DNA from: Giardia intestinalis | Taxonomy: Eukaryota | NCBI GenBank assembly: GCA_000002435.2 | Contig: CM018793.1 | Length of the DNA stretch: 64,000 nucleotides | Direction: 5' to 3' (one strand) | Part shown: one piece after another, positions 1-20,864 of the stretch | Numbering within the stretch: the first letter of the stretch is position 1 | How the letters are laid out: every line of letters begins with the position of its first letter | The notes under the pieces: generated by a model | Told to the model about the DNA's origin: nothing | Database searches by the model: none | Seen by the model: only the letters and a program-made list of their open reading frames with translations | Program-made: the position numbers and the translations under genes

Positions 1-7
1 AATTCAC

Positions 8-607: not shown

Positions 608-702
608 CTGAACGGGACTTTTTCTCTATTTGCAATTTCAATTTAAAATGCTTCTCCGACGTTTATTATCCCTATACTCGTCAATATAGTGTAAATAAGA
701 AA

Positions 703-1191
703 ATGGGCAAGGTCATAAGAGCAGTAAACAGGACAAAGAAGGGCTATGTAGGCGCCCCGCGCAGCGCCCGCTCGACGGAGGTGGTAATTACGCTGCCTCC
801 GCGCGAGTACAGGCGCCTCAGACGCAGCCTCGGGATGACCCGCCCCCCGCCCGAGTTCGCCGAGAAGGGGCGCATTATAAGACACAATAAGCCCTCCCCG
901 GCGCGCAAACGGGCCAGGATAGCCGCCCTAGAGGCCCTGAGGGCGGCCAGGGAGGAGGAGCTCGCCCGCAAGCGCTTCCCGGAGGACAAGGAGTACATAC
1001 TGAGGATCCTCCGCAAGTGGCTGGGCGAGGCGGCGGCGCACGAGAACGCCCAGATCGTGGACTCCCGCGCCGTCTGCGGGCCGAGGGCCGTCCGCCGCAA
1101 GACCGCCGTCCGCCTCCTCCCTCTGGTGCGCCAGTGGCTGCTGGAGCCCCTCAAGGACCTCGTGGCGAGGCTTGAGGCGGCCGAGAAGTAA
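703..1191 (+). CDS. hypothetical basic protein (162 aa, Arg/Lys-rich)
   Basis: The ATG is preceded by gtaaataagaaa. The stop TAA is embedded in AGTAAAT. The competing overlapping ORFs look like GC-rich frame noise. Confidence 0.5.
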   Translation: MGKVIRAVNRTKKGYVGAPRSARSTEVVITLPPREYRRLRRSLGMTRPPPEFAEKGRIIRHNKPSPARKRARIAALEALRAAREEELARKRFPEDKEYILRILRKWLGEAAAHENAQIVDSRAVCGPRAVRRKTAVRLLPLVRQWLLEPLKDLVARLEAAEK

Positions 1192-1206
1192 ATTGCACCG
1201 TTTACT
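1187..1206. terminator. two-armed stop/poly(A) palindrome AGTAAA-N8-TTTACT shared by convergent genes
   Basis: Stops at 1189-1191 (+) and 1202-1204 (-). Each arm reads AGTAAAY on its own strand. Confidence 0.55.
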
Positions 1207-1675
1207 CGTCGTAGCCCTCCTCGAAGAGGTCCCAGGCATGGTAGAAGCTCTCCAGGGCCGCGCACTTGTCGACGTGCTCGAGCTTGAGCGCCCGCCGCTT
1301 CTCCGGGTCGGGCTCGCGCCAGAAGGCCATCGAGCTGATCTTCTGGAAGGCCCGGAGCGCCCGGATCTGGAGGCGACCGTCCCGGGGCGAGAGGACGGCG
1401 GGGAGCAGCTTCTGGCCGAGGAGCCCCTTCCGCGCCATGTACAGCTCGATCATCTCCGCCCGCCAGCGGGTGAGGCAGCGGATCTGGCCCGCGCGGCGCG
1501 CGCTCCGCCTTCTGAACGCGCGGAGGGGGAGCCTCCCGCGCGGGCACTTATCGCAGCGCAGCCAGAACAGGTGGTCCGAGTAGAACGTGATCAGCTCCCA
1601 GAGCTTCCCCTGGGAGACGGAGGCCGGCTGGGCCAGGATCTCGGGCACGAAGCCGAAGGGAGGGAGGTAGGGCAT
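1202..1675 (-). CDS. hypothetical protein (157 aa)
   Basis: The 308-aa ORF was trimmed to Met152 (MPYLPPFGF...) because that ATG follows gaaagaaaaagggcg and the longer form overlaps the next gene. The stop lies in AGTAAAC. Confidence 0.45.
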   Translation of the reverse strand: MPYLPPFGFVPEILAQPASVSQGKLWELITFYSDHLFWLRCDKCPRGRLPLRAFRRRSARRAGQIRCLTRWRAEMIELYMARKGLLGQKLLPAVLSPRDGRLQIRALRAFQKISSMAFWREPDPEKRRALKLEHVDKCAALESFYHAWDLFEEGYDE

Positions 1676-1775
1676 CGCCCTTTTTCTTTCCCGTCCGCAG
1701 AAGCCGATTTGAAGTGGTTTGCAACACATATGTTGCTTGGCCGTTCTGCAACACATATGCTGCCGCGAATAAATA
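1676..1775. promoter_or_regulatory. divergent promoter region with a duplicated GCAACACATATG(T/C)TGC inverted-repeat motif
   Basis: 100-bp spacer between divergent ATGs. The sequence is ttgcaacacatatgttgc...ctgcaacacatatgctgc. The first copy is GCAACA-cata-TGTTGC (6-bp arms). aataaataATG lies at the right end. Confidence 0.4.
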
Positions 1776-4205
1776 ATGACGCGGCGCATCCAGTGCGGAG
1801 GCTCCAGCCTCGAGATCGACCCGCTGACCGGCGAGCTCTCCTTCGAGGACTTCCTGAACACGGCAGAGCCGCCCGAGCAGGACCCGATGCCCGTCCCGAA
1901 GATCGACGTCGGAGGATCGCTGGAGATACTTAACAGCCCGATTGTCGAGGCTATCTTCGGCGACGTCCTTGATAAGCTAGATCTTTTCAAGAAAGATGTC
2001 GACGCGTTCATTGCGATGCTCAAGCAGAAGACGAAGAACGCGATCAATTGGGGGTTAGCGTTAGTCGGCGTGACGACTGTCTCGGGCCTCATGGTCGTCA
2101 TGGTGAGAGAGATCACCATGGCCATCAAGCGCTGGCAGCGAACGAGAGAGTATCAGGACAGTCAGCAGCCAGAAGCCCAGCCGAAGATGATCTCCAAGGA
2201 GAACATGGAGAAGAAGGACGAGATCAGCGAGATTAGCGGCGAAGATGTGGAACCGCCGAGTCTCGGGGAGTACGAGGAGCAGGTGTATGACGAGAACGGC
2301 AACGCCATGTTGAATCCTGACGGCTCGCCGTTGACAAAGACAGTCGTTATCCCCCTCGATCGGGACATCTCCGACCAGTACGACCCAATTCCCGAACCCG
2401 ATGACATCTCAGAAGAGGAAGAGGAGATAGAAGAGGACGAAGTGGAAGAGGAGCCGCCCATCAAGATAACTGATGAGCTGATCAGCGATATCTTCTGGGA
2501 GTTCGACAAGCAGCCCATCCTCAACGAAGAGAACTTCGAGTTCCTCTACGACAGCGGCGTTTACATCATTCACATCCCCCACGTATATATGAAGCGTACA
2601 TGCAAGTTGGGCGGCGACTATGCGGCCTATCCCTGCAAGATGATCGAAAGCATCATCGGACCTGCCTTATGGGACAGATACGGCCATACATTCAAACTGC
2701 GCTTTCCAAACTGCTCACATCAAGTATCTGGTCCCATGGGCACTGAAATCTGTTGTAAGTGTCATATGAATGATTCAGTTCATTGGAGGATACGCGTAAT
2801 ACCGGACGATCAGCCTATATGGTATAACAACGACTGCACGTGCGGCGCTAATTGCAGTTGTCGTTGCCATACCAAGACTCCAGAGAGCGTCTTCACCGTA
2901 ACATACAATTGCGTTTTTTGGTGTGTTCCCTGTGCCACAAGATGTATCTATACCCAGTACGAATCTGACTGTTGGACTCATTACAATTTTTCCACGGATC
3001 GGGGCTTTAGATCAGAAAGTGTCGCCGATAGTAACGGTTTTAGTTCTGCATATATAATACCCGCAGGTAAAAAAATCATACGTTATGAGAGCGAAAACAA
3101 GAACTACCCATATAACTCGCGCGAGTGCTGTGACTTCTGCAAGGTGATGAAGAATTACTTTTACGAAACCGAGGGCTACAAGCTGCACCGCACCAACACA
3201 GAGGTCTACATCTTCTTCTCCCGCGGCGAGAACTCGACAATCTTCGAGAAATGCAACGACCTCTTCAATGGCTATGTGTCCCAGAAGATCCACGACCTTC
3301 TTTCAGACTGGGACGCTGGCAACAATAAGATCATGAATCGACTCAGCATCGACTGTAAGTGCGATGTGAAGCGGCCGCGCTGCACGGACGTCTTCCGAGG
3401 CCTGGGAGAGGTCCATGCTGATACCGTTGGTTTCCTAAAAGGCCATGCCCAGAAGGTCAAATGGATATACCTCCCCGACTACGATTCAAATCTCGGCTTG
3501 CCTTGGTGGTATGACGACCCGCACGACTACCAATCGATCTCGAAGGTCTGCGCATTCGAGGGCTTCCTCGAGCGCAACATCCCCGAGCACGTCATCCGCT
3601 TCTACTCTTACCGCAGACTCACAGACAAGAAGTGGTTCGGGAACCTCTACAAGCAGATCTGCGATGCGATACTCTTGGATTACCCAGACATGCCTGCGGG
3701 CATTGGGGCTGCTGCGCAGAAGTGGAAGGACTTCAACGCATGGAAAGGCATTGATAAGATGCTCAGCGACGTCGTTCCGGTTAAACAGATATATCCCGAA
3801 CAGGTTTATCCTGAGACGCGGCTCTTCACTAGCAAGCCGGCCAACTGGAACCAGCTGAAGCAGCGCGGCGCGAGTTGGACCGGCGAAGTAGAGCCAGAGC
3901 TCGCGTCCTTCAAGCGCTACCTCGACCTCCTCAACAAGTACTACCCGGGCTGGTGGGAGTTCCGGGAGACGCAGGAGCTCGGCTGGTGGGACAATTTCTG
4001 GACCCAGATACCCGACCTCAGGGACCTTGAGCGGACCTCCATCTTCTACTACGAGGACCTCACCATTGACGAGACCCACTATGAGATATACGGCGAACCT
4101 CCTTGGTGGCGCAGTTTCTGGGGGCCGACGATACGAGACAAGGCGCCCGACCCGGAGAGGCCGCGCACATACGAGGAAACAGTTGAAGTGGCAAGTCGAT
4201 ATTAG
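1776..4205 (+). CDS. membrane-anchored protein with an acidic linker, a Cys-rich central domain and a Trp-rich C-terminus (809 aa)
   Basis: A single hydrophobic span, WGLALVGVTTVSGLMVVMV, lies near aa 92-115. An EEEEEIEEDEVEEE tract follows. CxC/CxxC clusters are dense (CTCGANCSCRCH, CVFWCVPCATRC). The C-terminus has PGWWEF..GWWDNFW..PPWWRSFW. The stop lies in TAGTGAAT. Confidence 0.7.
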   Translation: MTRRIQCGGSSLEIDPLTGELSFEDFLNTAEPPEQDPMPVPKIDVGGSLEILNSPIVEAIFGDVLDKLDLFKKDVDAFIAMLKQKTKNAINWGLALVGVTTVSGLMVVMVREITMAIKRWQRTREYQDSQQPEAQPKMISKENMEKKDEISEISGEDVEPPSLGEYEEQVYDENGNAMLNPDGSPLTKTVVIPLDRDISDQYDPIPEPDDISEEEEEIEEDEVEEEPPIKITDELISDIFWEFDKQPILNEENFEFLYDSGVYIIHIPHVYMKRTCKLGGDYAAYPCKMIESIIGPALWDRYGHTFKLRFPNCSHQVSGPMGTEICCKCHMNDSVHWRIRVIPDDQPIWYNNDCTCGANCSCRCHTKTPESVFTVTYNCVFWCVPCATRCIYTQYESDCWTHYNFSTDRGFRSESVADSNGFSSAYIIPAGKKIIRYESENKNYPYNSRECCDFCKVMKNYFYETEGYKLHRTNTEVYIFFSRGENSTIFEKCNDLFNGYVSQKIHDLLSDWDAGNNKIMNRLSIDCKCDVKRPRCTDVFRGLGEVHADTVGFLKGHAQKVKWIYLPDYDSNLGLPWWYDDPHDYQSISKVCAFEGFLERNIPEHVIRFYSYRRLTDKKWFGNLYKQICDAILLDYPDMPAGIGAAAQKWKDFNAWKGIDKMLSDVVPVKQIYPEQVYPETRLFTSKPANWNQLKQRGASWTGEVEPELASFKRYLDLLNKYYPGWWEFRETQELGWWDNFWTQIPDLRDLERTSIFYYEDLTIDETHYEIYGEPPWWRSFWGPTIRDKAPDPERPRTYEETVEVASRY

Positions 4206-4215
4206 TGAATTTACT
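4204..4215. terminator. stop/poly(A) palindrome AGTGAATTTACT shared by convergent genes
   Basis: Stops at 4203-4205 (+) and 4214-4216 (-). Arms are AGTGAAT (+) and AGTAAAT (-). Confidence 0.55.
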
Positions 4216-7090
4216 AATAACTGATGTTTATAGCCGGGTTCTTTGCCCAGTACCAGATCTTCACCCGGTTACCTGAGCCAAGGGATCTCGAATTCGACCA
4301 TGTTAATCGTAGGTTAATGTACGAATCGCTAGTATAGTCCGACCACGAGACTATGATTGTGTCATATGTACTAACGCGACAATCATACGCCTGGATCGAG
4401 ACAATGTCGTCATTGGATCTGCTCTGCATGTCGCTCGGAAAGTCCGCGAGATTCAGTCGCATGAACCCGTTGCCGTCGGTCGTCTGACTCGGCACAAAGC
4501 TCTTCAGCAGACACGGCGTCTTGAGGGCGTTGCATATCCGCTCTGAGTAGCTGCACAGCGTCTCACAGTCAGTAATCCGGCTCAGCTGATTAGAGAGCTG
4601 AGAGGTGTTCTGAGCGATAGAAGCCAGAGCACCCGTGATCTTACCAGCTTGCTGACTGACGTTGTTCGAGATGACCTGCACCTGGTTGTAGAGCTGGTTA
4701 TAACAACTAATGTGCGAGTTCAGAGACGATTGGACACCGCTAATGCGATTCGTGTTCCCTAAGACAGAGTCCCAAATGCCGCGCTCATTCGACTCAAGCG
4801 CATTGATGCGAGTCTCCAGAGCAGGCACATTTCCAACATTGCCATCAAGACGAGTAAGGCTCTCTCGAATCTCGCTGATGCTCTGGTCGACTGCTGTCAT
4901 GTGGCGGTCATGTGCATCTAAGGCGTCCTGCGTAGAGTCTCTCAAGCTCTCTAGTCGACCGTTTATCTCTCTCGCTGAATTGTTAACTGCATCGATAGTA
5001 GTCGCGAACTCTGTCGTTGTCCTCTCTAACGAACCTATCTTCACCTCAGATGCTTCCACTGTCCTGCTCATCCGAGACAGCGATGAAGAGAAGGCTGCAT
5101 TGTCTGTCTCAAAGACGCCTACCTTTTCAGCGAGCCTTCGGATGATCTCGTCCTGTGCAGCAAGGCGTTCTTCAAAAGCGCTTGCCTTTGCGCGCTCCTC
5201 TTCTAACTGTCTCTCAAGAGAGTCGATACGCGCTGCCGTTAATTGAGCGCCCACCTTTGCCTCGACCTTCTGCTGGTCGATGAGCTCTCTGAGATAGTTG
5301 TACGCGCCCTCGAGGTCTCTCTTGATCGTCATAGCATCGATCAGACCTCCCTCGAAGTCGGGAACTGAGATGTCGTTCCGCTCAAAGAACTGTGCGACAA
5401 TGGTCATCAGAATCTCCATGCGGTTCCGGAACTCCATGAGACTGTCCTGGTTACCCTCGAGCACGCTCACGCGGTCCTTCGTTTCATCTAACTGAACGCG
5501 GTCATCGTCAGTGTGACTCGTCAAGTCCCGAATACGCTCTTCAGCTCGCTTTACTTCCAAATGGGTCAAGGTCATATCATCGTTTATGTGTGAGAACTCA
5601 TCCCAAATGAACTGGAAGCGTTTATAAAGATCATCAGTCAGAAACTTGTATATCTTGCCGAACTTATAGTCATGCTGGTCGAGGCGGTACTTCGCTTCCA
5701 CTGCATATGTAAGGGCTACCGCAGCGACGACGCCAAGACACGCGTCTATCACATATCCGGTAATCAAGTTAATCAGATTCAGCTTCCGGAAAAGACCGCC
5801 CCCTGCGGCGATAATAGTATCAAACTCGCCGAGCTTATCCTTCATCAGATCTTCCTTCGTGAACGTCTTCTTCTTGATGAGATCGATCTGGCCCTCGGCG
5901 CGCTTGATGCGAGCCTCTAGAGTCTTCCGCTGCTTCTCGAGACGGTTGATCTTTGAATCGGCTTTCATTGCGTGCTTAGCAAGATAACGCGTTTGATGTG
6001 AGATGCGTCCCTTGCTAAGCTTCTTGAGACTCTTAATGGCTGTAACGTTACCGCCGATCTTGTAGTACTTTCCGAGGTGCTTGCGAAGACCATTGTCCTC
6101 GTCGCCGTCCTCATCGAAGCCCTGAAGCTGTCGATAGAGCCACATTGTCTGCTGGTTGAGCGAGGCGGCCATGAAGTCTGCACGAGACACGCGACCATCG
6201 GGAGAGAGCTTCTGATTGCTGCGACCAGCAAGCGACCCGCCGACCATCTGATAGATATACTGGATCTGCTCGATGACCGGTTGGCTCTTCAAATCGTCTT
6301 CGCTAATAGCGCCCGTCACGCCCTTGATGGAGATATCAGCATCTCTTGCAGCTCGCAGCCCAAACGTCTCAGGCTTCTTTATCTTACGTGGCTTCTTCGG
6401 CTCCTTTGGCTTCCTCTCCTTCTTGAGCTTCTTCTTCTTATCTGTAAGCGGCAGAAGGTCCTCCCGAAAAGCATAGTTGCCCCTTACCATCCACGTGACA
6501 GCAAGGATCTTCTGAACAATCGTCAGGTCGCGCAAATAGTCGAGCTTGTTCGGCGCATTCATATAGTCCTCCGGCTGGAAGTTGTTGTTGAAGCCGACCA
6601 TTGGGACCGACTTGACCTTCGGCTTCGAGAGAGTCTGCCCGGTTAGAGACATCGTATAGAGATCCGCAGGCACAGTCTTGAAGCCCAGTATCTCCTCCAT
6701 GAACTTCACTAGAAACGCTAGACACGGACCCTTCACCGGAGACTCTCCGTCGAAGGCATTGCCGTTCCAGTTCTTGATTTCATAGTTCTCATGATTACAA
6801 TAGTACTTGATGCACTTCTTTCGCTGAGCGGGGTCAAGAAGCTGCACGGCGCAGTGTATTGTCTTCCCGCCAAAGTACCCCGATATGCAGTGAGTCTTGC
6901 TGAGATTCAGGTTAGACCCAAACAGAGCTTTGCGTTCGTCAGGCACTAAGGCACACTGCATCACGTAGTCTTTGATGAGGTTATAATGATACGATGAGAG
7001 TGCGCTGACCTTATCTGCGAACGACTGCATCGACTCTGTCGTCATGAAGACGCCGTCGAGCTGCTCCCTGCGGATGATGAGGTTGTTCAT
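4214..7090 (-). CDS. large protein (958 aa): N-terminal domain, basic KKKKLKKERKPKEPKKPRKIKKPE tract, one central hydrophobic span, long coiled coil and a beta-rich C-terminal head (fibre/spike-like architecture)
   Basis: Uninterrupted 958-aa ORF. The hydrophobic segment is LINLITGYVIDACLGVVAAVALTYAV. About 350 aa of heptad-like sequence follow (RIDSLERQLEEERAK, KIGSLERTTTEF, ETRINALESNERG). The terminal ~100 aa are rich in S/T/Y/W (VSWSDYTSDSYINLRLTWSNS...KIWYWAKNPAINISY). Confidence 0.75.
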   Translation of the reverse strand: MNNLIIRREQLDGVFMTTESMQSFADKVSALSSYHYNLIKDYVMQCALVPDERKALFGSNLNLSKTHCISGYFGGKTIHCAVQLLDPAQRKKCIKYYCNHENYEIKNWNGNAFDGESPVKGPCLAFLVKFMEEILGFKTVPADLYTMSLTGQTLSKPKVKSVPMVGFNNNFQPEDYMNAPNKLDYLRDLTIVQKILAVTWMVRGNYAFREDLLPLTDKKKKLKKERKPKEPKKPRKIKKPETFGLRAARDADISIKGVTGAISEDDLKSQPVIEQIQYIYQMVGGSLAGRSNQKLSPDGRVSRADFMAASLNQQTMWLYRQLQGFDEDGDEDNGLRKHLGKYYKIGGNVTAIKSLKKLSKGRISHQTRYLAKHAMKADSKINRLEKQRKTLEARIKRAEGQIDLIKKKTFTKEDLMKDKLGEFDTIIAAGGGLFRKLNLINLITGYVIDACLGVVAAVALTYAVEAKYRLDQHDYKFGKIYKFLTDDLYKRFQFIWDEFSHINDDMTLTHLEVKRAEERIRDLTSHTDDDRVQLDETKDRVSVLEGNQDSLMEFRNRMEILMTIVAQFFERNDISVPDFEGGLIDAMTIKRDLEGAYNYLRELIDQQKVEAKVGAQLTAARIDSLERQLEEERAKASAFEERLAAQDEIIRRLAEKVGVFETDNAAFSSSLSRMSRTVEASEVKIGSLERTTTEFATTIDAVNNSAREINGRLESLRDSTQDALDAHDRHMTAVDQSISEIRESLTRLDGNVGNVPALETRINALESNERGIWDSVLGNTNRISGVQSSLNSHISCYNQLYNQVQVISNNVSQQAGKITGALASIAQNTSQLSNQLSRITDCETLCSYSERICNALKTPCLLKSFVPSQTTDGNGFMRLNLADFPSDMQSRSNDDIVSIQAYDCRVSTYDTIIVSWSDYTSDSYINLRLTWSNSRSLGSGNRVKIWYWAKNPAINISY

Positions 7091-7159
7091 TATTTATTTT
7101 CCCCACTCACACCAACCATTTGAAAGTGGAATCTGTTCTGAGAAAATAAAATGACGTAA
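7091..7159. promoter_or_regulatory. conserved bidirectional intergenic cassette (copy C1) with a 2-codon uORF ATG-ACG-TAA abutting the polB ATG
   Basis: The sequence is tatttattttcc...CCAACCATTTGAAAGTGGAATCT...GAGAAAATAAAATGACGTAAATG. Related cassettes lie at 11795-11867, 18294-18365 and 19231-19343, with an orphan at 20700-20747. Confidence 0.5.
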
Positions 7160-10756: not shown

Positions 10757-10763
10757 ATTTACT
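10752..10763. terminator. perfect 12-bp stop/poly(A) palindrome AGTAAATTTACT
   Basis: Stops at 10754-10756 (+) and 10763-10765 (-). Confidence 0.6.
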
Positions 10764-11794: not shown

Positions 11795-11867
11795 TTTATT
11801 TTCCCAGTAGTGCACGTCTCAAGAGCCAAACCATTTTAAAGTGAATTCTCCCCACGGAAATAAAAGT
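11795..11867. promoter_or_regulatory. conserved bidirectional intergenic cassette (copy C2)
   Basis: The sequence is tttattttcc...GCCAAACCATTTTAAAGTGAATTCTCCCC..GGAAATAAAAGTATG. Confidence 0.5.
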
Positions 11868-12122
11868 ATGGCTGGCCACCTTCTCAACAGCAACGGGACC
11901 GCGAAGAACGAGAACAAGCTCTACACCCAGAAGCCGACGCCCTTCTACGACGCGGGCACGGTGCCGGTCCGTCTGTCCTCGGTACCCTTCGAGAGCCGCA
12001 ACGAGCCGATCCGCGTCCAGATCGACGAGCCGCCCAAGCAGCGCCCGCGAGCTGGTCTAGTGCGCACCCGCAAGAGGATGATCCCGAGGAACCGCTGGAA
12101 GAGGAACGGGAACAAGCAGTAA
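11868..12122 (+). CDS. small basic protein (84 aa), island-specific
   Basis: The start was trimmed to MAGHLL, which follows GGAAATAAAAGT. The C-terminus is basic (RAGLVRTRKRMIPRNRWKRNGNKQ). A paralog lies at 18366-18617. The stop lies in AGTAAAC. Confidence 0.55.
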   Translation: MAGHLLNSNGTAKNENKLYTQKPTPFYDAGTVPVRLSSVPFESRNEPIRVQIDEPPKQRPRAGLVRTRKRMIPRNRWKRNGNKQ

Positions 12123-12131
12123 ACGTTTACT
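12118..12131. terminator. perfect 14-bp stop/poly(A) palindrome AGTAAACGTTTACT
   Basis: Stops at 12120-12122 (+) and 12127-12129 (-). Confidence 0.6.
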
Positions 12132-12723
12132 TCGAGATCTCCTCGAGGAAGCGGTTGAAGGTGTTCGTCTCGGTGGAGGCGTTGAGGAAGCGCTGGATGC
12201 CGTCAGCCCACGCCTGGGCGCTCTCGTCGCTGATGCTGAGACAGGTGGCTGTGTACGTGCGCTTGTTCTTGGGAAGCCTCGAGAGCCTCACGAACTCGTC
12301 TCCGGTCTCCTCGTAGAGATAGAAGGCAGAGCGTGCTCCATCAGAAGCGCGTCTGCAGAAAGCGGTGTAGTGAGGGGCTTGCACGAACTCGTCCTCGGGT
12401 CGCTTGACGAAGCGGAAGACGACGCCCTGCTGGTTGAGCCACTTGCAGAACCAGGAGGTGACTCGCTGATAGTCCTCAGTACCCTCAGCGCACTCTGCGG
12501 TGACTCGACCGAGCAGTCTTCCGACCTGGCCGCAAAAGGACTTAAACGCGGGACTGGACGGGGCGGGAGGATTTGCCACTGGCAGAACGGGCTCGGCGTC
12601 GGCGGTCTGTCGCTGTCGGGTTCTAGAGGCAGACTTCCTATGAGTGGGCTCTCTGGAGGAAGGAATGACATCTTGAAGGAAGGGGTCCTCGGCGAAGTGC
12701 TCTGGTATGAATCCATCTGCCAT
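12127..12723 (-). CDS. hypothetical protein (198 aa), island-specific
   Basis: The protein begins MADGFIPEHF and the ATG follows aggaaaataaaataagc. A paralog lies at 18622-19230, with the C-terminal ~130 aa well conserved. Confidence 0.6.
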   Translation of the reverse strand: MADGFIPEHFAEDPFLQDVIPSSREPTHRKSASRTRQRQTADAEPVLPVANPPAPSSPAFKSFCGQVGRLLGRVTAECAEGTEDYQRVTSWFCKWLNQQGVVFRFVKRPEDEFVQAPHYTAFCRRASDGARSAFYLYEETGDEFVRLSRLPKNKRTYTATCLSISDESAQAWADGIQRFLNASTETNTFNRFLEEISK

Positions 12724-12754
12724 GCTTATTTTATTTTCCTGGGAGCCCTGTAAC

Positions 12755-12826
12755 CAGATCAGATCAGAATTGATTCCTGATCAATTCGGACGAAGCGACG
12801 ACTCCAGAAAAAAAAATAACGCTGAC
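12755..12826. repeat. partial copy of the 5' part of repeat module R (GATCA/GAATTGAT iteron-like array plus A9-TAACGCTGAC)
   Basis: Patchy match to 13702-13792 and 19809-19905. It includes the 8-bp inverted repeat GAATTGAT-tcctg-ATCAATTC. Confidence 0.6.
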
Positions 12827-12839
12827 GTGAATTCGATGT

Positions 12840-13679
12840 TTACTTTGCAAACAGCTTTACGATGTCTTCCTTGTCTCCGGCAATGGCCAACGCAAAAACC
12901 CTACCATTATTGATGTCCTTCTCCTTATCTGCCAACAAAGCAGCACAAGCAGCATGGCCATTTCTCACAGCCCACTCGAAAGCAGTACCACGGGCGTTAT
13001 TGCATAACCTGGCCTCCTTATCTAACAACAGCTTGACGATGTCTGCGTAACCACAGGATGCTGCTAGCATGAGAGCGGTCCAGCCGTCGTTATCCTTCAT
13101 GCCTGCCTCCTTCTCCGCTAATAGGTTAGCGCACTTAGTGTGACCCTTACACGCAGCCCACATGAGAGCAGTCCTACCATCTTTATTCTTCATGCCGGCC
13201 TCCTTCTCTAACAACAGCTTAACGCTGTATGCGGAATCCTTGGATGCTGCTATTATGAGAGCCGACCCGCAGCATCTCGCACATATACCGGCCTCCTTCT
13301 TCACTAGCAGGTCAACGCACTTAAAATTAAACTTACTCACAGCCCACATGAGGGCGGTCCTACCGATGACATCCTTCATACCAGCCTCCTTCTCTAACAG
13401 CAGCTTAACGCAGTCTGTATAGCCTTCGGATGCTGCTATCATGAGAGCCGTCAAGCCGTGTCCATCACTCATACCAGCCTCCTTCTCCACTAGCAGGTTA
13501 GCGCAGTTAGTATGACCCTCCCTCGCAGCCCACATGAGGGCAGTCCAGCTGTTGAAATCCCTCAGGCCAGCCTCCTTGTCTACTAGTTCCCTGACGACAT
13601 CGATGTTACCTTGCGCTGCTGCTTCTATGAGATCCCTAAAACCATATCCTGGCGACTTGTATTCTCGATAAGCCTTCAT
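12840..13679 (-). CDS. ankyrin-repeat protein (279 aa, ~8 repeats of the TALMWAA..GH..CV.LL..KEAG type)
   Basis: A regular ~33-aa ANK periodicity runs through the whole ORF. The start is ggaaaataaaatATG. The stop lies in AAGTAAAC. Confidence 0.88.
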   Translation of the reverse strand: MKAYREYKSPGYGFRDLIEAAAQGNIDVVRELVDKEAGLRDFNSWTALMWAAREGHTNCANLLVEKEAGMSDGHGLTALMIAASEGYTDCVKLLLEKEAGMKDVIGRTALMWAVSKFNFKCVDLLVKKEAGICARCCGSALIIAASKDSAYSVKLLLEKEAGMKNKDGRTALMWAACKGHTKCANLLAEKEAGMKDNDGWTALMLAASCGYADIVKLLLDKEARLCNNARGTAFEWAVRNGHAACAALLADKEKDINNGRVFALAIAGDKEDIVKLFAK

Positions 13680-13701
13680 ATTTTATTTTCCTCCCCGCCC
13701 T

Positions 13702-14161
13702 GAATCAATTAATCAGATCAGAATCAATTCGTCAGAATGGTTTGCACTTCCTGACTGCCGCCTCCCAGAAAAAAAAAATAACGCTGGCCTGCTTTCTGCT
13801 TTCGGGCTGTCTGTATGTCGCACTTCGGTGTCGTGCGGGCCCGGGGGCAGGGAGCAGACCAGGCTGGCCGGCAGCTGAACCGGGCGCGAACGCATCACAC
13901 ACATCCAAGGACAACGCGGTCTCCTCCCGGCGTGCACGGCACCACGCTGGGCGGTTCCGGGGGGAGGCCGCGATTTTTTTTGAAAATTTACAGGTTTTTT
14001 ATTCTGTTGAAAAGTAGGTAAACGAGCGCCAGCGTGTGGGAGCCTAGTGGGCGGACCGGCACACGCAGACGCACTTGTGGGGGACGCTTTCGTTTTTTTG
14101 GGCCCAGCCCCGTGCAGGCCCAAAAAAACGAAAGTGGGCACCACAAGGATATATACTACTG
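13702..14161. repeat. repeat module R, copy A (~460 bp)
   Basis: Colinear with 19809-20231. The order is a GAATCA array, A10-TAACGCT, a conserved core GTATGTCGCAC..GGTGTCGTGCGGGC, ~190 bp of GC-rich sequence, T8 and an AT-rich tract, an 18-bp-stem hairpin (14087-14134), then GGATATATACTACTG. Homology stops abruptly after this last motif. Confidence 0.85.
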
Positions 14162-17100
14162 ACGCCCGCCGTCATCACGTTCCTCCGCGGCTGGAAGGTC
14201 TTCGCAGACGGCGACGACGCGCACCGGCACTACCTCAACGCGGTTACGAAGGACGCGGCGCAGATCCACGGCGTCCAGTCTGCAGAGCCCGGCGAGATGC
14301 TCTACTGCTTCAACTGGGACCCGGTCTTCGGGGGCACTGAGAGCGACCCCGAGAACCCCCACAACGCGCTCTTCTCGTTCGGGACGATGTACGAACCCGT
14401 CTTCTTCTTCCAGATCCAGATCGTGCGCATGAAGGATGGCCAGCGGAAGTTCATCCACCGGCGCGGCGGCCTGGCCCCCTTCACGAACGACTCGTTCTTC
14501 GACCTCAACCGCTACCAGATCGAGCGGACAGGCGAAGGCTTTCGGAACAGCAAGGACACGTGCTTCCTCTACGCTCTCAAGCAGAGCGGGCAGCTGAACG
14601 ACGAGGAGATCAAGGCCGCGGCGCTCCACATCAACCAGGCGGCGGTCACGTTCGCGATGGTCGACGCGATCGGCAAGCAGCTCTTCATCTGCTTCCACAT
14701 GCACATGCCGGACAGGGTCGTCCTCCGGGGCGCACAGAAGGGCCGCAAGCTCCCGCCCGGCGTCGCACTCCGGAACATCCAGATAGGCTTCGACTTCAAC
14801 CACTACTACATCTTCGACGAGAAGCTCCCCTACAGCAAGGCGTACGTGAACCACGCGTCCGTGATGATGGAGCACAACGCGTACCCGGAGAACGCGAACG
14901 TCCGCGAGGTCAGCGTCCGGAACACCTTCCACCCGGAGACCCGGGAGCCGATGCAGAAGGTCGTCTTCGGCTACCACCGCGACGACGACCCCCACACGTG
15001 CACGAGCCGCGACCTCCTCCTCTCGCTCCACAAGCAGGGCCTCCTCCGCCCGATCCGCTCAGACGACCTCCTCGCCGTCAAGGAGTCCTTCATCCGCGAG
15101 GAACACTACGCGGAGGACAACCTCGAGTTCTGCGAGAACCAACTCAAGAAGATCGAGCCCAAGAAGAAGCAGGCCCCGCCGAAGGACGTCTGGTTCGCGG
15201 ACTTCGAGACGACGACCGACGGGGACCAGCACCACCCGTTCCTCCTCTGCTTCCACGGGGCGAACAATGTGACGGGGACTACTGGGCGAAGGACTACACA
15301 GCATCGGGGACATGGTCCAGCGGCCTTCCCGCCTCGCGACCTCAACCGGCCCCAGCTGGTTACTTCACAACCTCAACTACGACGGGGCCTTCGTCCTCCC
15401 GTACTTCGACGTCAAAAGGACAGCATCGTCACCCTCGGGGCGAGCAAGATCATCGCGTTCACATCCACATCCGACTGAGCGACGACCGGAAGAACAAGCC
15501 GATCCCGATCCACTTCCGGGACTCCTACGCCCTGATCACGGCGCCCCTCAGCAAGTTCGGGAAGATGTTCAACCTCGACGTCCACAAGGAGGTCCTCCCG
15601 TACTCGTTCTACACGCAGGAGAACGTCCGCAAGCTCGCAGAGGGCTACCGGCCGACCCTCGAGGAGTACCTCTCGTACGAGATGGAGAGCAGACGGACCG
15701 AGCTCGAGCAGCTGGTCCGCATGCTGCCGGGGATGCTCGTCGAGGACCGCGTCGATGCGCTCCGCTACGCCCACTACTACTGCGCGCGGGACTGTCACGT
15801 GCTCAAGGAGGGCGTCCTCCGCTTCCGGCAGCAGCTCCTCGAGGTCACCGGGATCGACGCGTTCACGTCCATGACTCTCCCGAGCGTCGCGTACAACTAC
15901 CTCATCAACGAGAAGTGCTTCGAGGGCTGCTTCAACCTCAACACGGCTCCGCTTCTCTTCGTGCGCCAGTGCGTGACGGGCGGGCGCTGCATGCTCCGGA
16001 ACAACGAGAAGCAGTACGTCGAGGGCGAGATCATGGACTTCGACGCGGTCTCCCTGTACCCGTCCGCAATGGCGCGCATCTACACCCTCAAGGGCCACCC
16101 GAAGGTCGTCGACCCCGAGAAGCACGACCTCGGCTGGCTCCTCCGCCAGGACGGCTGCTTCCTCGAGATAGACATTCAGATCGTCCCGAAGACCCTCGAC
16201 TTCCCCCTCATCAACCGCCAGACGGAGAAGGGCCGCCACTTCTCAAACGAGCCAGGCCCGATGTTCGCGGACAACATCACGATCGAGGACATCATCGAGT
16301 ACCACAAGGTCCCGATGAACCGAATCCGCGTCCTCCGGGGCTACTACTACGACGAGGGGAAGAACTTCGCCATCCAGACCGTTATCCGGAAGCTCTTCGA
16401 TACGCGCCTCAAGTTCAAGGCGGAGGGCAACCCCCTTGAGAGCATCTACAAGCTCATCATGAACAGCTGCTACGGGAAAAGCATCCTCAAGCCCGTCTTC
16501 AAGCGGATGAACACCGTCGACCGGGCCGGGCTCGAGCGGGAGCTCCTCGACAACTCCGCCGACATCCTCTGCTGGGAGCCGCTCTACGACGGCGGCCGCT
16601 TCCTCCTCAAGCAGAGCCGCCCGCTCCTCATGGCGAACAGCTTCCCGACGTTCGGCGTCCAGGTCCTCTCGATGAGCAAGCGCATCATGACGGAGGTGAT
16701 GGCAACGGCCCAGGACCACGCGCTCCCGATCTACTACACGGACACCGACAGCATCCACATCGACAAGCGGTCAATAGAGCCGCTCCGGAACTACTTCCAC
16801 GCGCGCTTCCACCGCGAGCTCATCGGCAAGAACCTCGGCCAGTTCCACTCGGACTTCCCCGACAGCCCCTCCGGCGAGATGTTCGTCAGCCGCTTCTTCG
16901 TCGGCGTCGGCAAGAAGGCGTACCTCGACATCCTCCAGGACAGCCAGGGCCACATGAGCTACCACGCGCGCCTCAAGGGCATCCCCGAGCAGGCGATCCT
17001 CAACGAGGCCCGCCAGCGCTGCGCCCAGAACTTCCTCGGCGGGCTCTACAACCTCTACGCCGACCTCTACAACGGCGTCCCCCAGACCTTCAACCTCATC

Positions 17101-17229
17101 TACGACGGCGCCGTCCGCTTCGTCCGCGACGCGCACCTCGCCTACCGCTGCCGCGACGACTTCAAGCGCCGCGTCATCTTCGAGAAGGAGCCCGACGCGC
17201 CCCTGAACGTCGTCAAGCTCATGCAGTGA
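14162..17229 (+). pseudogene. second pPolB copy, 5'-truncated (starts at the equivalent of aa ~173) and frame-broken around Exo II
   Basis: The 14075-15478 frame and the 14560-17229 frame together are colinear with polB aa ~173-1198. Motifs A, B, C and KKAY are intact (DFDAVSLYPSAM, KLIMNSCYGKS, YYTDTDS). A net 10 nt are missing between 15274 and 15474. There is no ATG or promoter at the 5' junction with module R. Confidence 0.85.
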
Positions 17230-17236
17230 ATTTACT
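17225..17236. terminator. stop/poly(A) palindrome AGTGAATTTACT
   Basis: Stops at 17227-17229 (+) and 17232-17234 (-). Confidence 0.55.
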
Positions 17237-18293
17237 CCATGCTGCTCTCCTCGTCGCGCGCAAGGACCTCCTGGAACTCATCAAACGACAAGGCCATCAT
17301 CTGCATGCGGCGCTTGAACGGATTGACGAACCTCCCATATGCGGTCCAATCGCAGAGCTCGTTGAAGAAGACAAACGCGTTGATCCTGCGCATCCCGATC
17401 TGGACGAAGTAGCGGCGGTCCTCGCCGAGGAAGAGAGTATTCTCGACAACGTACTGGCGCGTCACCCTCGCGGCCGCGACGAGCGAGAACTGGTTCCCCG
17501 CCGAGAAGGCCTTGCTCCACTCGGTGTCCGCTGGATGGTTCAGGTTGAAGACCGGCGTGTAGACGCCCTTGTGCTTGAGGAGGAACTCGTTCGTCTTACT
17601 CACGACCCCGAGCGCGTCCTCCTCGCACTGGCGGTGTTCCTCCTCAGCAGCGCGCTGGACGATACGCTGCGCACAGATCAGCGGGTCCGTCGCAAAGCGG
17701 ACGTGTGTCGCCGGAAGGATCCCCGCGTACGACATGTAGACGTCGATCAGGTAGTGGAGGTACATCGCCTGGCGGCCCGTAATATGGCCCTCCTGCACCT
17801 GGAAAAGGACGAACGCACTCGTCGAGGGCAGCCAGCGGTCGAAGATGACGAGGTCGTAGTCCTTGTACTTGTCCGTGAAGCGGTACTCGAGGAGCTGGTC
17901 TGCGAGAGCATGTGTGACGGCGAGCTGGAAGCGGTACGCGTTGGCGTGCGGGTCCCTGTAATACTCGTCGAGCGTGATCCCGTACGCGCTGAAGCACTCG
18001 AGCCCCACAACCTCCTCGATGACCACTGCCTTCAGCCCGCTGTCCTGGGCGTGCTCGACAAGGCGGCGGCAGAAGAGGGACTTGCCGGCCCCGATGGGTC
18101 CGTCGACGACAATCATGCGCGGATCGACGCACGCCGGCGGGATGACGGATGCGTGCCGCGCCAGGCTCAACCCGCGAAGAGTGGACAGCTTCGAGTTCAC
18201 CTCGAGCAGCTCCTCGGACACGTCGTAGTAGAGGCTCGAGTGGCGGACAAGCTCGGTCCCGGGCTGGTTCTGGGGCTCGTAGTACAGGCTCAT
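17232..18293 (-). CDS. deoxynucleoside kinase family protein, divergent paralog of 10763-11794
   Basis: The start was trimmed to MSLYYEPQNQ, which follows ggaaataaa. The P-loop is VVDGPIGAGKSL. Also present are LDEYYRDPHANAYRFQ, VIFDRWLPSTSAF and HYLIDVYM. The ORF is intact. Roughly half its residues are shared with copy 1. Confidence 0.72.
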   Translation of the reverse strand: MSLYYEPQNQPGTELVRHSSLYYDVSEELLEVNSKLSTLRGLSLARHASVIPPACVDPRMIVVDGPIGAGKSLFCRRLVEHAQDSGLKAVVIEEVVGLECFSAYGITLDEYYRDPHANAYRFQLAVTHALADQLLEYRFTDKYKDYDLVIFDRWLPSTSAFVLFQVQEGHITGRQAMYLHYLIDVYMSYAGILPATHVRFATDPLICAQRIVQRAAEEEHRQCEEDALGVVSKTNEFLLKHKGVYTPVFNLNHPADTEWSKAFSAGNQFSLVAAARVTRQYVVENTLFLGEDRRYFVQIGMRRINAFVFFNELCDWTAYGRFVNPFKRRMQMMALSFDEFQEVLARDEESSME

Positions 18294-18365
18294 TTTATTT
18301 CCTGGCGGCCTCCCCAATAAATGCCAAAGCATTTGAAAGTGAATTCTCCCGCCAAAAATAAAAGT
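18294..18365. promoter_or_regulatory. conserved bidirectional intergenic cassette (copy C3)
   Basis: The sequence is tttatttcc...GCCAAAGCATTTGAAAGTGAATTCTCCCGCCAAAAATAAAAGTATG. Confidence 0.5.
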
Positions 18366-18617
18366 ATGGCAGGCCACCTCCTCAGCAGCAAGGGGACCAC
18401 GAAAAACGAGAACAAGCTCTTCACCCAGAAGCCGACGCCCTTCTACGACGCAGGCACCGTCCCGGTCCGCCTCGCGTCCGTGCCCTTCGAGAACCGCAAC
18501 GAGCCGATTCGCGTCCAGATCGACGAGCCGCCCAAGCCCCGCCCTCGCGCAGGCCTCGTCCGCACCCGCAAGAGGCTGATCCCGAGGAACCGCTGGAAGA
18601 AGAACACGTACCAGTAA
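18366..18617 (+). CDS. small basic protein (83 aa), paralog of 11868-12122
   Basis: The protein reads MAGHLLSSKGTTKNENKLFTQKPTPFYDAGTVPVRL... About 70 of its first 79 residues are identical to copy 1. Confidence 0.55.
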   Translation: MAGHLLSSKGTTKNENKLFTQKPTPFYDAGTVPVRLASVPFENRNEPIRVQIDEPPKPRPRAGLVRTRKRLIPRNRWKKNTYQ

Positions 18618-18626
18618 ATGTTTACT
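18613..18626. terminator. stop/poly(A) palindrome AGTAAA-tg-TTTACT
   Basis: Stops at 18615-18617 (+) and 18622-18624 (-). Confidence 0.55.
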
Positions 18627-19230
18627 TCGAGATCTCCTCGAGGAAGCGAGCGAACGTGCCCGGCTCGGTCGAGGCGTTGAGGAAGCACTGGATGCCCTCT
18701 GCCCACTGCAGCGCCTGCTCGTCGGTGAGGCACGGACTTGTCGCCGTGTACGAGCGCTTGAACTTCGGGAGCCGCGACAGCCTCACTAACTCCTCCCCGG
18801 TCTCCTCTAAGAGGTAGAAGGCAGAGCGCACTCCATCTGATGCTCGCCTGCAGAAGGCGGTGTAGTGGGGCGCGCGCACGAACTCGTCCTCGGGCCTCTT
18901 GACGAAGCGGAAGATGACCCCGAGCTGGTTGAGCCACTGGCAGAACCAGGCCGTGACTCGCTCGTAGTCCTCCGTGCCCTCGGCGCAGTCGGCAGTAATG
19001 CGGCCCAGTAGTCTTCCCACCTGGCCACAGAAGCTCTTGAAGGGCGGGCCGGCGCGGGCGGATGTCTGCTGTGCGGGCTCGGGGTGCGAAGTCTGCTGAA
19101 CGGGGTCGGGGTCGGCGTGCGCTCGAGCCTTGAGGGGGCTTCGCTTGCGAGAGGATCCTCGAGGAGGGAGGGCGATGTCTTGCGTGAAGAGGTCCTCGGT
19201 GTAATGCTCAGGAATGATGCCATCTGCCAT
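18622..19230 (-). CDS. hypothetical protein (202 aa), paralog of 12127-12723
   Basis: The start was trimmed to MADGIIPEHY, matching copy 1. The core FKSFCGQVGRLLGR.TA.CAEGTEDY.RVT.WFC.WLNQ.GV.FRFVKRPEDEFV.APHYTAFCRRASDG is shared. Confidence 0.6.
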   Translation of the reverse strand: MADGIIPEHYTEDLFTQDIALPPRGSSRKRSPLKARAHADPDPVQQTSHPEPAQQTSARAGPPFKSFCGQVGRLLGRITADCAEGTEDYERVTAWFCQWLNQLGVIFRFVKRPEDEFVRAPHYTAFCRRASDGVRSAFYLLEETGEELVRLSRLPKFKRSYTATSPCLTDEQALQWAEGIQCFLNASTEPGTFARFLEEISK

Positions 19231-19343
19231 GCGTCCTTTTATTTTCTTGACGCTCCTATCATAAAGACGCAAACCATTTCAAATCCACTTCTACCAAACA
19301 ATATTAAATTCACTTCCTTCCGGCGTCTGCAGAAAAAAAAAAA

Positions 19344-19787: not shown

Positions 19788-19808
19788 ACCTGCGCTCCTC
19801 GGTCATGC

Positions 19809-20800: not shown

Positions 20801-20864
20801 CCTTTCCTCAAGCCCCTCTGCGGAGGGCAGGGCAAGAGCCTGCGCGGCCTGCCCTGGGCGCTGT

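What the first reader, a model, noticed from the sequence alone, without database searches (positions are those of the whole stretch)
1187..18626. Every convergent gene junction in the island is a two-armed AGTRAA/TTTACT palindrome containing both stop codons
Seen: six of six convergent junctions share this form. They are 1187-1206 (AGTAAA-N8-TTTACT), 4204-4215 (AGTGAATTTACT), 10752-10763 (AGTAAATTTACT, perfect), 12118-12131 (AGTAAACGTTTACT, perfect), 17225-17236 (AGTGAATTTACT) and 18613-18626 (AGTAAAtgTTTACT). The two stop codons lie only 2-10 nt apart, and each forms part of its own arm. Established: AGTRAAY is the Giardia polyadenylation signal. Inference: one compact palindrome serves as the stop and 3'-end signal for both strands, and it could form a hairpin in either transcript. 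Host convergent pairs in this window (25077/25107, 30181/30224, 51164/51171, 60699-60710) do not form the two-armed palindrome. This is therefore an island-specific economy feature.
Basis: partly seen in the sequence, partly recalled or inferred. Interest (0 to 1): 0.5.

Follow-up and report, generated by a model that had tools for sequence, protein, structure and literature searches.

The report
Back-to-back stop/poly(A) signals in Giardia island
In a silent, virus-like gene cluster of the Giardia genome, genes that face each other end in the parasite's own stop-plus-poly(A) signal and are packed so tightly that the two signals touch and read as a short palindrome. This is a tidy but expected result of known signals plus extreme compaction, not a new kind of element.

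Summary
All six AGTRAA-N(0-8)-TTYACT sites exist at the stated coordinates. They are the only such sites in 64 kb (about 0.05 expected by chance), and each lies at a convergent gene junction with stop codons 2-10 nt apart.

Three corrections apply:
- Two pairs of sites (10752/17225 and 12118/18613) are homologous copies within a duplicated segment, so there are four independent junctions.
- Three of the 12 stop codons only overlap their arm by 1-2 nt.
- The element's next convergent junction, just outside the window, has a 125-nt spacer.

The window is Giardia intestinalis WB chromosome 5. The island is the published "silent gene cluster", which looks like a Polinton-like endogenous virus.

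Each arm is the Giardia poly(A) signal WGURAA followed by a pyrimidine, used as a "dual-use" stop and poly(A) signal. That phenomenon is already described for 7-15% of Giardia genes. In the island, 15 of 15 gene ends have it, against 9 of 38 sampled host gene ends. The arrangement is conserved in diverged relatives.

The palindrome follows geometrically from two abutting signals. Hairpin energies are negligible (0 to -3 kcal/mol). No 3' ends can be checked because the cluster is untranscribed in trophozoites. Interest is modest.

The parts
1187..1206 (.). Two facing poly(A)/stop signals, AGTAAA-N8-TTTACT. The stops are TAA 1189-1191 (+, 162-aa ORF 703-1191) and TTA 1202-1204 (-, about 157-aa ORF 1202-1675).
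   Evidence: Both hexamers are followed by a pyrimidine.
4204..4215. Abutting signals AGTGAA|TTTACT (N=0). The stops are TAG 4203-4205 (+, 809-aa Cys-rich ORF 1776-4205, named GL50803_003666 and listed as GL50803_3666 in the 2013 RT-qPCR set) and CTA 4214-4216 (-, 958-aa coiled-coil ORF 4214-7090, GL50803_0016686). Each stop shares only AG with its arm. The local palindrome extends to about 4200-4219 with one G.T pair.
   Evidence: Relatives have TAGTGAATTCACA or TAGTAAATTCACA here.
10752..10763 (.). Perfect 12-nt palindrome AGTAAATTTACT. The stop TAA 10754-10756 belongs to protein-primed PolB (7160-10756, +). The stop of the dNK-like kinase (10763-11815, -) is TTA 10763-10765, displaced by a 6-7-nt extension while the AGTAAA arm is retained.
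12118..12131 (.). Perfect 14-nt palindrome AGTAAACGTTTACT. The stops are TAA 12120-12122 (+, conserved 83-aa basic ORF, ATG at 11871) and TTA 12127-12129 (-, 198-aa ORF 12127-12723, GL50803_0060433).
   Evidence: The small ORF has dN/dS of 0.06-0.29.
17225..17236 (.). AGTGAA|TTTACT, the homologue of 10752-10763 in the second copy. The stops TGA 17227-17229 (+, frameshifted and N-truncated PolB copy 14075-17229) and TTA 17232-17234 (-, second dNK copy 17232-18377) are 2 nt apart, the minimum possible spacing.
18613..18626 (.). AGTAAAtgTTTACT, the homologue of 12118-12131 in the second copy. The stops are TAA 18615-18617 (+, 83-aa ORF) and TTA 18622-18624 (-, 204/216-aa ORF 18622-19272).
3..8 (-). 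Single dual-use signal AGTGAA at the end of the RING-finger gene (8-607, -). The stop TGA shares its A with the hexamer.
12839..12844 (-). Single dual-use signal AG-TAA-A at the end of the ankyrin-repeat gene (12840-13679, -). This is a tandem junction, not a convergent one.
19783..19788 (+). Single dual-use signal AG-TAA-A at the end of the 147-aa ORF 19344-19787.
1..24200 (.). Right-hand part of the high-GC (0.55-0.63) island. This is the silent gene cluster of G. intestinalis WB chromosome 5, a Polinton-like endogenous viral element with a partly duplicated PolB-dNK-83aa-198aa module and degraded fragments at 19.9-24 kb.

Best explanation
**What each arm is.** Each arm is an ordinary Giardia poly(A) signal, the hexamer WGURAA followed by a pyrimidine, that also contains or touches the stop codon of its gene. 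This is a "dual-use" stop and poly(A) signal.

**Why a palindrome appears.** The island is an extremely compact, virus-like (Polinton-like) element. Nearly every gene in it ends this way, and convergent genes are pushed together until the two hexamers abut (N=0) or nearly abut (N=2 or 8). Two copies of one asymmetric signal placed tail to tail on opposite strands necessarily read as an inverted repeat. The palindrome is therefore a by-product, not a separate signal.

**Inferred mechanism when the element is transcribed.** Host RNA polymerase II transcripts from either strand would be recognised by Giardia's reduced cleavage and polyadenylation machinery at their own hexamer. They would be cut 8-9 nt past the hexamer, which is 13-15 nt from its first A. 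That point lies just beyond the partner arm. The result would be 3' UTRs of about 8-12 nt, and the two mRNAs would overlap by only about 14-18 nt. The first T (or C) after each hexamer, often supplied by the partner arm, is the 3' pyrimidine that best marks genuine sites. No hairpin is required.

**Shown versus inferred.** Shown here: sequence, position, statistics, conservation and weak folding. Inferred: use of the hexamers as poly(A) signals and the cleavage positions.
For: **The sites**
- The six sites are the only matches in 64 kb, against 0.05 expected.
- All 15 island gene ends in the window have AGTRAA overlapping the stop and followed by a pyrimidine. This includes the three non-convergent ends at 3-8, 12839 and 19783, which shows the signal belongs to each gene and not to the junction.

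**Island versus host**
- The remaining island genes on L008 have the signal at 4/7 ends, and relatives at 33/50.
- Host G. intestinalis has it at 9/38 ends with WGTRAA, or 7/38 with strict AGTRAA.
- Fisher tests (on the strict-AGTRAA host count, 7/38) give P = 2.7e-8, or 1.1e-6 when only the 11 independent island ends are counted.

**Literature**
- AGUAAA or AGUGAA is the signal in 60% of genes, and cleavage is 13-15 nt from the first A. Dual-use stops occur in about 15% of genes and give a median 11-nt UTR (PMC9014877).
- The consensus is WGURAA. The downstream pyrimidine explains more than 70% of the discrimination of genuine sites. Dual use is 7.4% in assemblage A (PMC11529991).

**Conservation**
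- The junctions stay compact in relatives with 55-85% PolB identity. There the stop-to-stop gap is 2-5 nt at most junctions, with 15 and 22 nt at two others and the conserved 124-125-nt junction as the exception. They keep WGTRAA arms despite dS of 0.3-2.1 in the flanking genes, which are under purifying selection with dN/dS of 0.06-0.6.
- The last sense codon varies among Q, K and E but stays NAG.
- In dNK copy 1 the stop moved, yet the AGTAAA arm was kept.
- TAG-terminated genes are followed at once by TGAA or TAAA, which completes the hexamer.

**Folding**
- Core hairpins are 0 to -3.0 kcal/mol.
Against: - No transcript 3' ends are available. The cluster is essentially untranscribed in trophozoites (PMC3610916), and its genes were absent from the held parts of the poly(A) supplements.
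- Sense-strand WGTRAA is not depleted inside island coding regions relative to synonymous shuffles: 12 observed against 6.7 expected, and 4 against 1.5 with the 3' pyrimidine. That selection signature of a used signal is therefore missing.
- One conserved convergent junction of the element keeps a 124-125-nt spacer, so compaction is not universal.
- The host comparison rests on only 38 genes and 7 convergent junctions, plus published genome-wide percentages.
Confidence: 0.75

Rival explanations
1. The inverted repeat is itself the signal. It folds into an RNA hairpin that directs 3'-end formation on both strands, as in the Mimiviridae "hairpin rule".
For: - The element is virus-like.
- The sites are true inverted repeats placed exactly at transcript ends.
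- With 10-nt flanks, two sites (1187 and 4204) fold somewhat better than shuffles, with z about -2.4 to -2.7.
Against: - Core minimum free energies are 0, 0, 0, -0.9, -0.9 and -3.0 kcal/mol.
- With N=0 only a 4-bp A/U-rich stem can form.
- The z-scores vanish with 25-nt flanks, and four sites show no excess at all.
- Palindromy outside the hexamers is not conserved in relatives.
- Mimivirus hairpins are not conserved at the sequence level (PMC4402537). Here the conserved feature is the host hexamer itself.
- Non-convergent island genes carry a single arm with no partner.
Confidence: 0.04
2. The palindromes are DNA-level sites for a dimeric protein, for example a viral transcription termination, recombination or replication factor, and coincide with gene ends.
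For: - They are short, perfect or near-perfect palindromes conserved across relatives.
- The element has other conserved palindromic motifs in its promoters, such as GCAACACATATGYTGC.
Against: - The spacer between the arms varies (0, 2, 8 nt, and 13 or more in relatives), which is unlike a dimer-binding site.
- The arm sequence is exactly the host poly(A) hexamer.
- Arms also occur singly at tandem gene ends.
- Arms tolerate the changes the poly(A) signal tolerates, namely A/G at position 4 and A/T at position 1.
Confidence: 0.04
3. There is no signal function at all. The pattern is a relic or a coding and compositional side effect (C-terminal K/Q/E codon plus TAA/TGA plus A) in a silenced, decaying insertion.
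For: - The cluster is transcriptionally silent.
- The second PolB copy is frameshifted and further fragments are degraded.
- Internal hexamers are not depleted in island coding sequence.
Against: - Shuffles give about 0.05 sites per window against 6 observed.
- The NAG-TRA-A-Y context is kept while the encoded last residue changes.
- The hexamer is kept when the stop lies outside it, as at the TAG stops and in dNK copy 1.
- The genes are under purifying selection across at least 6 independent relatives, so the family has been functional.
Confidence: 0.12

Closest known systems
Dual-use stop codon and poly(A) signals of diplomonads: Giardia WGURAA and Spironucleus AGUGA (PMC9014877, PMC11529991, PMC7641422, PMC3916229)
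   Same: The hexamer is identical, the stop codon lies inside or touches it, a 3' pyrimidine follows, and ultrashort 3' UTRs are predicted. This is the mechanism I assign to each arm.
   Different: In the G. intestinalis host only 7-15% of genes do this. In the island 19 of 22 gene ends do. At convergent pairs the two signals are fused back to back with 0-8 nt between them. That arrangement was not mentioned in the papers read here.
Pervasive tail-to-tail transcript overlap in Giardia (PMC3610916: 1,321 tail-to-tail pairs; 81% of the 1,097 pairs with mapped UTRs overlap)
   Same: Convergent neighbours have 3' ends that cross. Facing signal pairs also occur at host junctions (window 30189-30208; L013 4444-4470).
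   Different: In the host the signals usually lie beyond the stops, and UTRs are longer (median 80 nt in that study). The island junctions would limit the overlap to about 14-18 nt.
Mimiviridae "hairpin rule" for polyadenylation (PMC4402537, citing Byrne et al. 2009)
   Same: It is a viral context in which a palindrome at the gene end can serve both strands of tail-to-tail genes.
   Different: Those palindromes form stable hairpins, are not conserved in sequence, and are processed by viral enzymes in the cytoplasm. Here the arms are 6 nt, folding is negligible, and the sequence is the host nuclear signal.
Polinton/Maverick-type endogenous viruses
   Same: The island encodes a protein-primed family B DNA polymerase, an A32-like packaging ATPase and possibly an rve integrase. 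It is integrated in a protist chromosome.
   Different: No capsid proteins, protease or terminal inverted repeats were identified here. The locus is about 41 kb with internal duplications, which is larger than the classical 15-20 kb.

Membership tests
Giardia WGURAA poly(A) signal used as a dual-use stop codon | Hexamer WGURAA at the gene's 3' end | tested here: met
   All 12 arms are AGTAAA or AGTGAA. In relatives some arms are TGTGAA or TGTAAA, both within the consensus, and one is GGTAAA.
Giardia WGURAA poly(A) signal used as a dual-use stop codon | The hexamer overlaps the stop codon, using the search window of 2 nt upstream to 5 nt downstream from PMC11529991 | tested here: met
   15/15 island gene ends in the window meet it. 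12/15 have the stop fully inside the hexamer.
Giardia WGURAA poly(A) signal used as a dual-use stop codon | A pyrimidine immediately 3' of the hexamer, the main discriminator of genuine sites | tested here: met
   15/15 island hexamers are followed by C or T.
Giardia WGURAA poly(A) signal used as a dual-use stop codon | Mapped cleavage and poly(A) addition 8-9 nt after the hexamer | not testable with these tools
   The cluster is not transcribed in trophozoites. Its genes are absent from the held supplement text.
Giardia WGURAA poly(A) signal used as a dual-use stop codon | Depletion of the hexamer inside coding sequence | tested here: not met
   Island coding sequence has 12 sense hexamers against 6.7 +/- 2.4 in synonymous shuffles. 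The numbers are small and the expected value is low because of the high GC content.
Hairpin-rule polyadenylation (Mimiviridae type) | A stable hairpin-forming palindrome at the transcript end | tested here: not met
   Core minimum free energies are 0 to -3.0 kcal/mol. There is no consistent excess over shuffles.
Hairpin-rule polyadenylation (Mimiviridae type) | The palindrome is defined by structure, not by conserved sequence | tested here: not met
   The conserved feature is the hexamer sequence. Flanking palindromy is not conserved.
Polinton/Maverick-like endogenous virus (the island) | Protein-primed family B DNA polymerase | tested here: met
   Pfam DNA_pol_B_2, E = 5e-37. The protein is identical to the WB "putative DNA polymerase".
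Polinton/Maverick-like endogenous virus (the island) | A32/FtsK-type packaging ATPase | tested here: met
   L008 16037-17065: Pox_A32 at 25.4 bits against a cutoff of 22.8, E = 1.1e-5. The match is only just above the threshold.
Polinton/Maverick-like endogenous virus (the island) | Retroviral-type (rve) integrase | tested here: inconclusive
   L008 11396-12424: rve with E = 5.9e-4, 20.5 bits, below the cutoff of 32.6.
Polinton/Maverick-like endogenous virus (the island) | Double jelly-roll major capsid protein, penton protein and maturation protease | tested here: inconclusive
   There were no Pfam or PDB sequence hits for the large ORFs. Fold-level search was not possible for proteins encoded outside the window.
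Polinton/Maverick-like endogenous virus (the island) | Terminal inverted repeats and target-site duplication | not tested
   The left end lies outside the window. No inverted repeats of 40 nt or more were found in 1-25000.

The most novel reading that the evidence does not exclude
The silent chromosome-5 cluster may be an endogenous copy of a still-circulating lineage of Polinton-like DNA viruses of Giardia. In this reading its transcription units are fully adapted to the Giardia-specific WGURAA machinery. Genes alternate in orientation, so that every spacer is either a shared bidirectional promoter or a minimal bidirectional stop/poly(A) palindrome. The back-to-back signals would then be selected in their own right as bidirectional terminators that keep convergent transcripts from forming long double-stranded RNA.
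Probability: 0.3. Interest if true: 0.55.

Novelty: new member of a known kind. Interest (0 to 1): 0.3.

Why it matters
If the reading is right, the junctions show how far the known dual-use stop/poly(A) device can be pushed. Two genes on opposite strands would be terminated and polyadenylated by 12 nt of shared DNA, which is the physical minimum.

It also shows that a virus-like element in Giardia has adopted the host's derived poly(A) signal at almost every gene. That implies nuclear, host-dependent expression and a long association with Giardia.

The 12-mer AGTAAATTTACT would make a convenient minimal bidirectional terminator for Giardia constructs.

The finding does not reveal a new mechanism of 3'-end formation.

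Tried and rejected
- **Hairpin model.** I folded the cores and the +/-10 and +/-25-nt contexts on both strands against dinucleotide shuffles. The model is rejected.
- **Mapped 3' ends.** I searched the supplements of PMC9014877 and PMC3610916 for the island genes. Nothing was found. The files were truncated when stored, and the cluster is silent.
- **Selection against internal signals.** I tested this in island coding sequence (one search timed out). There was no depletion, so this line of support failed.
- **Genome-wide host frequency.** It could not be computed. Only about 89 kb of G. intestinalis host sequence could be gathered (the host part of the window, L013 and L014). L018 turned out to be the orthologue of L013, and L001 overlaps the window.
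- **G. muris.** One locus (L012, 14 genes) showed 3/14 overlaps and no compact palindrome. The sample is too small to generalise.
- **Free viral relatives.** The IMG/VR scan with PolB found none.
- **tRNA genes.** An apparent tRNA-like stretch in L008 was not confirmed, and no tRNA genes were found in the window or in four related loci (L002, L005, L007, L008).
- **Capsid and other hallmark proteins.** Pfam and PDB sequence searches found none.
- **Exact-protein lookup of PolB.** It failed at first, although the protein is identical to the WB entry.
Full report
**1. What is in the sequence**

- 1187-1206
- 4204-4215
- 10752-10763
- 12118-12131
- 17225-17236
- 18613-18626

Dinucleotide-preserving shuffles give a mean of 0.05 such sites per window and 0.014 for the first 20 kb, and never more than one.

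Each site lies where a + strand ORF and a - strand ORF terminate. The stop-to-stop gaps are 10, 8, 6, 4, 2 and 4 nt.

Nine of the twelve stop codons lie fully inside their hexamer (AG-TAA-A or AG-TGA-A). The two TAG stops at 4203-4205 and 4214-4216 share only the AG with their arm. The dNK stop at 10763-10765 shares one base.

**2. Independence of the six sites**

The segment 7677-12740 recurs at 14160-19247 with 72-93% identity. It carries PolB, a dNK-like kinase, an 83-aa ORF and a 198-aa ORF. Sites 10752 and 17225 are therefore homologous, as are 12118 and 18613. The six sites represent four independent junctions.

The two copies are nevertheless old. The dNK copies share 48% amino-acid identity with dS of about 1.6. 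The 83-aa ORF copies have dS of about 0.4. Retention of the motif in both copies is therefore informative.

**3. What the island is**

The host part of the window encodes typical Giardia proteins: SF-assemblin/beta-giardin, a VSP-type high-cysteine membrane protein, and TBCC.

Island proteins are identical to G. intestinalis WB entries. These include the RING protein, GL50803_003666, GL50803_0016686 and GL50803_0060433. The PolB is 100% identical to the WB "putative DNA polymerase".

[quoted passage not shown] 2013. That cluster spans about 41 kb and holds 28 ORFs with FPKM <= 0.5 (one at 0.59) in trophozoites. RT-qPCR confirmed the low expression (PMC3610916).

The window begins inside this cluster. 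Its leftward continuation (locus L008) adds an A32-like ATPase (25.4 bits, above the Pfam cutoff) and a weak rve integrase match. Together with the protein-primed PolB (E = 5e-37), this makes a Polinton/Maverick-like endogenous virus the most plausible identity. I found no capsid proteins, protease or terminal repeats. No paper in the searchable library describes it as such. A Giardia pPolB does appear in a Polinton tree (PMC4642659).

**4. What the arms are**

The Giardia poly(A) signal is AGURAA. AGUAAA occurs in 45% of genes and AGUGAA in 15%. Cleavage is mostly 13-15 nt from the first A (PMC9014877).

[quoted passage not shown] Stop codons embedded in the hexamer are a described "dual-use" device:
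- about 15% of genes (or 7.4% by another count) in assemblage A, with a median 3' UTR of 11 nt;
- 18.3% by the 2024 count in G. muris (described as "most genes" in the 2020 genome paper), and predominant in Spironucleus salmonicida.

Every arm of the six sites is AGTAAA or AGTGAA followed by C or T.

**5. The key point: the signal belongs to the gene, not to the junction**

All 15 island gene ends in the window carry the hexamer overlapping the stop. This includes three ends with no convergent partner: the RING gene at 3-8, the ankyrin gene at 12839-12844, and ORF 19344-19787 at 19783-19788.

| Set | Gene ends with hexamer overlapping the stop | Source |
|---|---|---|
| Island, inside the window | 15/15 | |
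| Island, rest (L008) | 4/7 | |
| Five related elements | 33/50 | |
| Host G. intestinalis (window, L013, L014), WGTRAA | 9/38 | |
| Host G. intestinalis, strict AGTRAA | 7/38 | |

The Fisher test for island against host (strict-AGTRAA host count, 7/38) gives P = 2.7e-8, or 1.1e-6 when only the 11 independent island ends are counted.

Two such signals on opposite strands, brought together, must read as AGTRAA...TTYACT. With N=0 the hexamers are as close as they can be, because they cannot overlap. With both stops embedded, that configuration gives the 2-nt stop-to-stop gap seen at 17225 and in several relatives. The palindrome follows from near-universal dual use plus zero-length tail-to-tail spacers.

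**6. Conservation**

PolB relatives with 54-98% identity exist in ENA and Logan assemblies. Six loci were read.

- Gene order is conserved for 809aa>, <958aa, PolB>, <dNK, 83aa>, <198aa.
- The junctions remain compact. Stop-to-stop gaps are 2-5 nt at most of them, with 15 and 22 nt at two others; the 124-125-nt junction described below is the exception.
- Arms are AGTRAA in most cases. Some are TGTGAA or TGTAAA, which are within WGURAA, and one is GGTAAA.
- The flanking genes have diverged to dS of 0.3-2.1 under purifying selection, with dN/dS of 0.06-0.6. The 83-aa ORF is included, so it is a real gene.
- The last sense codon changes between CAG, AAG and GAG (Q, K and E) but stays NAG.
- TAG-terminated genes are followed directly by TGAA or TAAA.
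- In dNK copy 1 a 6-7-nt extension moved the stop out of the hexamer, yet AGTAAA was retained.

These details point to selection on the hexamer as a signal, not merely on a stop codon.

**7. Hairpin**

Minimum free energies of the cores are 0, 0, 0, -0.9, -0.9 and -3.0 kcal/mol. With 10-nt flanks only two sites (1187 and 4204) reach z of about -2.4 to -2.7, and with 25-nt flanks none stands out. The extra palindromy at 4200-4219 is not conserved in relatives.

The Mimiviridae "hairpin rule" relies on hairpin-forming palindromes that are not conserved in sequence (PMC4402537). Here the situation is the reverse.

**8. Limits of "every junction" and of "island-specific"**

The element's next convergent junction lies outside the window (L008 8952/9078). 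It has a 125-nt spacer in which the arms are crossed (TTTACT ... AGTAAA), which predicts about 100 nt of antisense overlap. This arrangement is conserved in L002, L005 and L007.

On the host side, the junction 30181/30224 contains TGTAAA-N8-TTCACA, and L013 4434/4486 contains AGTAAA-N15-TTCACT. In both, the arms lie between the stops. Facing signal pairs are therefore a general Giardia solution. What distinguishes the island is their fusion with the stops and the loss of the spacer: 0 of 7 sampled host convergent junctions are compact, against 4 of 5 independent island junctions (P = 0.01).

A full genome-wide count could not be made with the sequence available. From published figures (1,321 tail-to-tail pairs, 7-15% dual use) I infer that at most a few tens of host pairs could have both arms on their stops.

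**9. Weak points**

- No 3' ends can be examined because the cluster is silent in trophozoites.
- Its genes do not appear in the held parts of the relevant supplements.
- Sense-strand hexamers are not depleted inside island coding sequence: 12 observed against 6.7 expected. That expected signature of an actively used signal is missing, though the numbers are small.

**10. Verdict**

The interpretation as a stop-plus-3'-end signal for both strands is reasonable.

The "two-armed palindrome" is not an element in its own right, and the hairpin suggestion is not supported. It is a very compact instance of the known diplomonad dual-use stop/poly(A) signal, concentrated in a Polinton-like, transcriptionally silent island and conserved in that element's relatives. 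Interest is modest. The more interesting by-product is the nature of the island itself.

Noticed in passing
window 1-24200, continuing left of the window (locus L008): The island is the published "silent gene cluster" of G. intestinalis WB chromosome 5. It carries a protein-primed PolB, an A32-like ATPase and a weak rve integrase hit, so it looks like a Polinton/Maverick-like endogenous virus. Twelve PolB relatives (54-98% identity) occur in independent ENA and Logan assemblies, with genes under purifying selection. No paper in the library describes it this way.
   Followed up: partly
window 8-12723: Nine consecutive genes alternate strictly in orientation (- + - + - + - + -). Every spacer is therefore either a shared divergent promoter region (about 69-100 nt, AT-rich) or a shared convergent terminator (2-10 nt). 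The order is conserved in relatives L002, L005 and L017.
   Followed up: partly
window 1721-1736 and 1748-1763: A paired near-palindromic motif, GCAACACATATGTTGC and GCAACACATATGCTGC, lies upstream of the 809-aa gene. It is conserved at the same place in L002, L005 and L008, and is also paired upstream of the 209-aa gene in those loci. It may be a promoter or regulatory site of the element.
   Followed up: partly
L008 8952-9078 (also L002 2063-2189, L005 1770-1896, L007 14065-14190): This convergent junction has a conserved 124-125-nt spacer in which the two poly(A) hexamers are crossed (TTTACT ... AGTAAA). If both genes are transcribed, about 100 nt of sense/antisense overlap is predicted, which could be a substrate for small-RNA production. 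PMC3610916 notes that a small RNA was reported from one ORF of the cluster.
   Followed up: no
window 13800-14165, 19910-20235 and 20384-20433: About 360 nt of repeated sequence precedes each truncated PolB copy, and a third short PolB fragment follows. The region 19.9-24.2 kb has no long intact ORFs. This suggests tandem or nested rearrangement, or repeated integration, of the element.
   Followed up: partly
window 10757-10765: Relative to the second copy and to relatives, dNK copy 1 has a 6-7-nt extension (ATGGAG-CGC-TAA-G...). It moves the stop codon out of the hexamer while the AGTAAA arm stays intact.
   Followed up: yes
window 30189-30208; L013 4444-4470: These host convergent junctions have facing WGURAA hexamers (TGTAAA-N8-TTCACA and AGTAAA-N15-TTCACT) that lie between the stop codons, not on them. 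Two-armed signal pairs are therefore not confined to the island.
   Followed up: yes
window 24200-64000 (host coding sequences): In host coding sequence the antisense form TTYACW is, if anything, more frequent than synonymous shuffles predict (52 against 42). The sense form WGTRAA followed by a pyrimidine tends to be depleted (3 against 7.8). The island coding sequence shows no such depletion.
   Followed up: no
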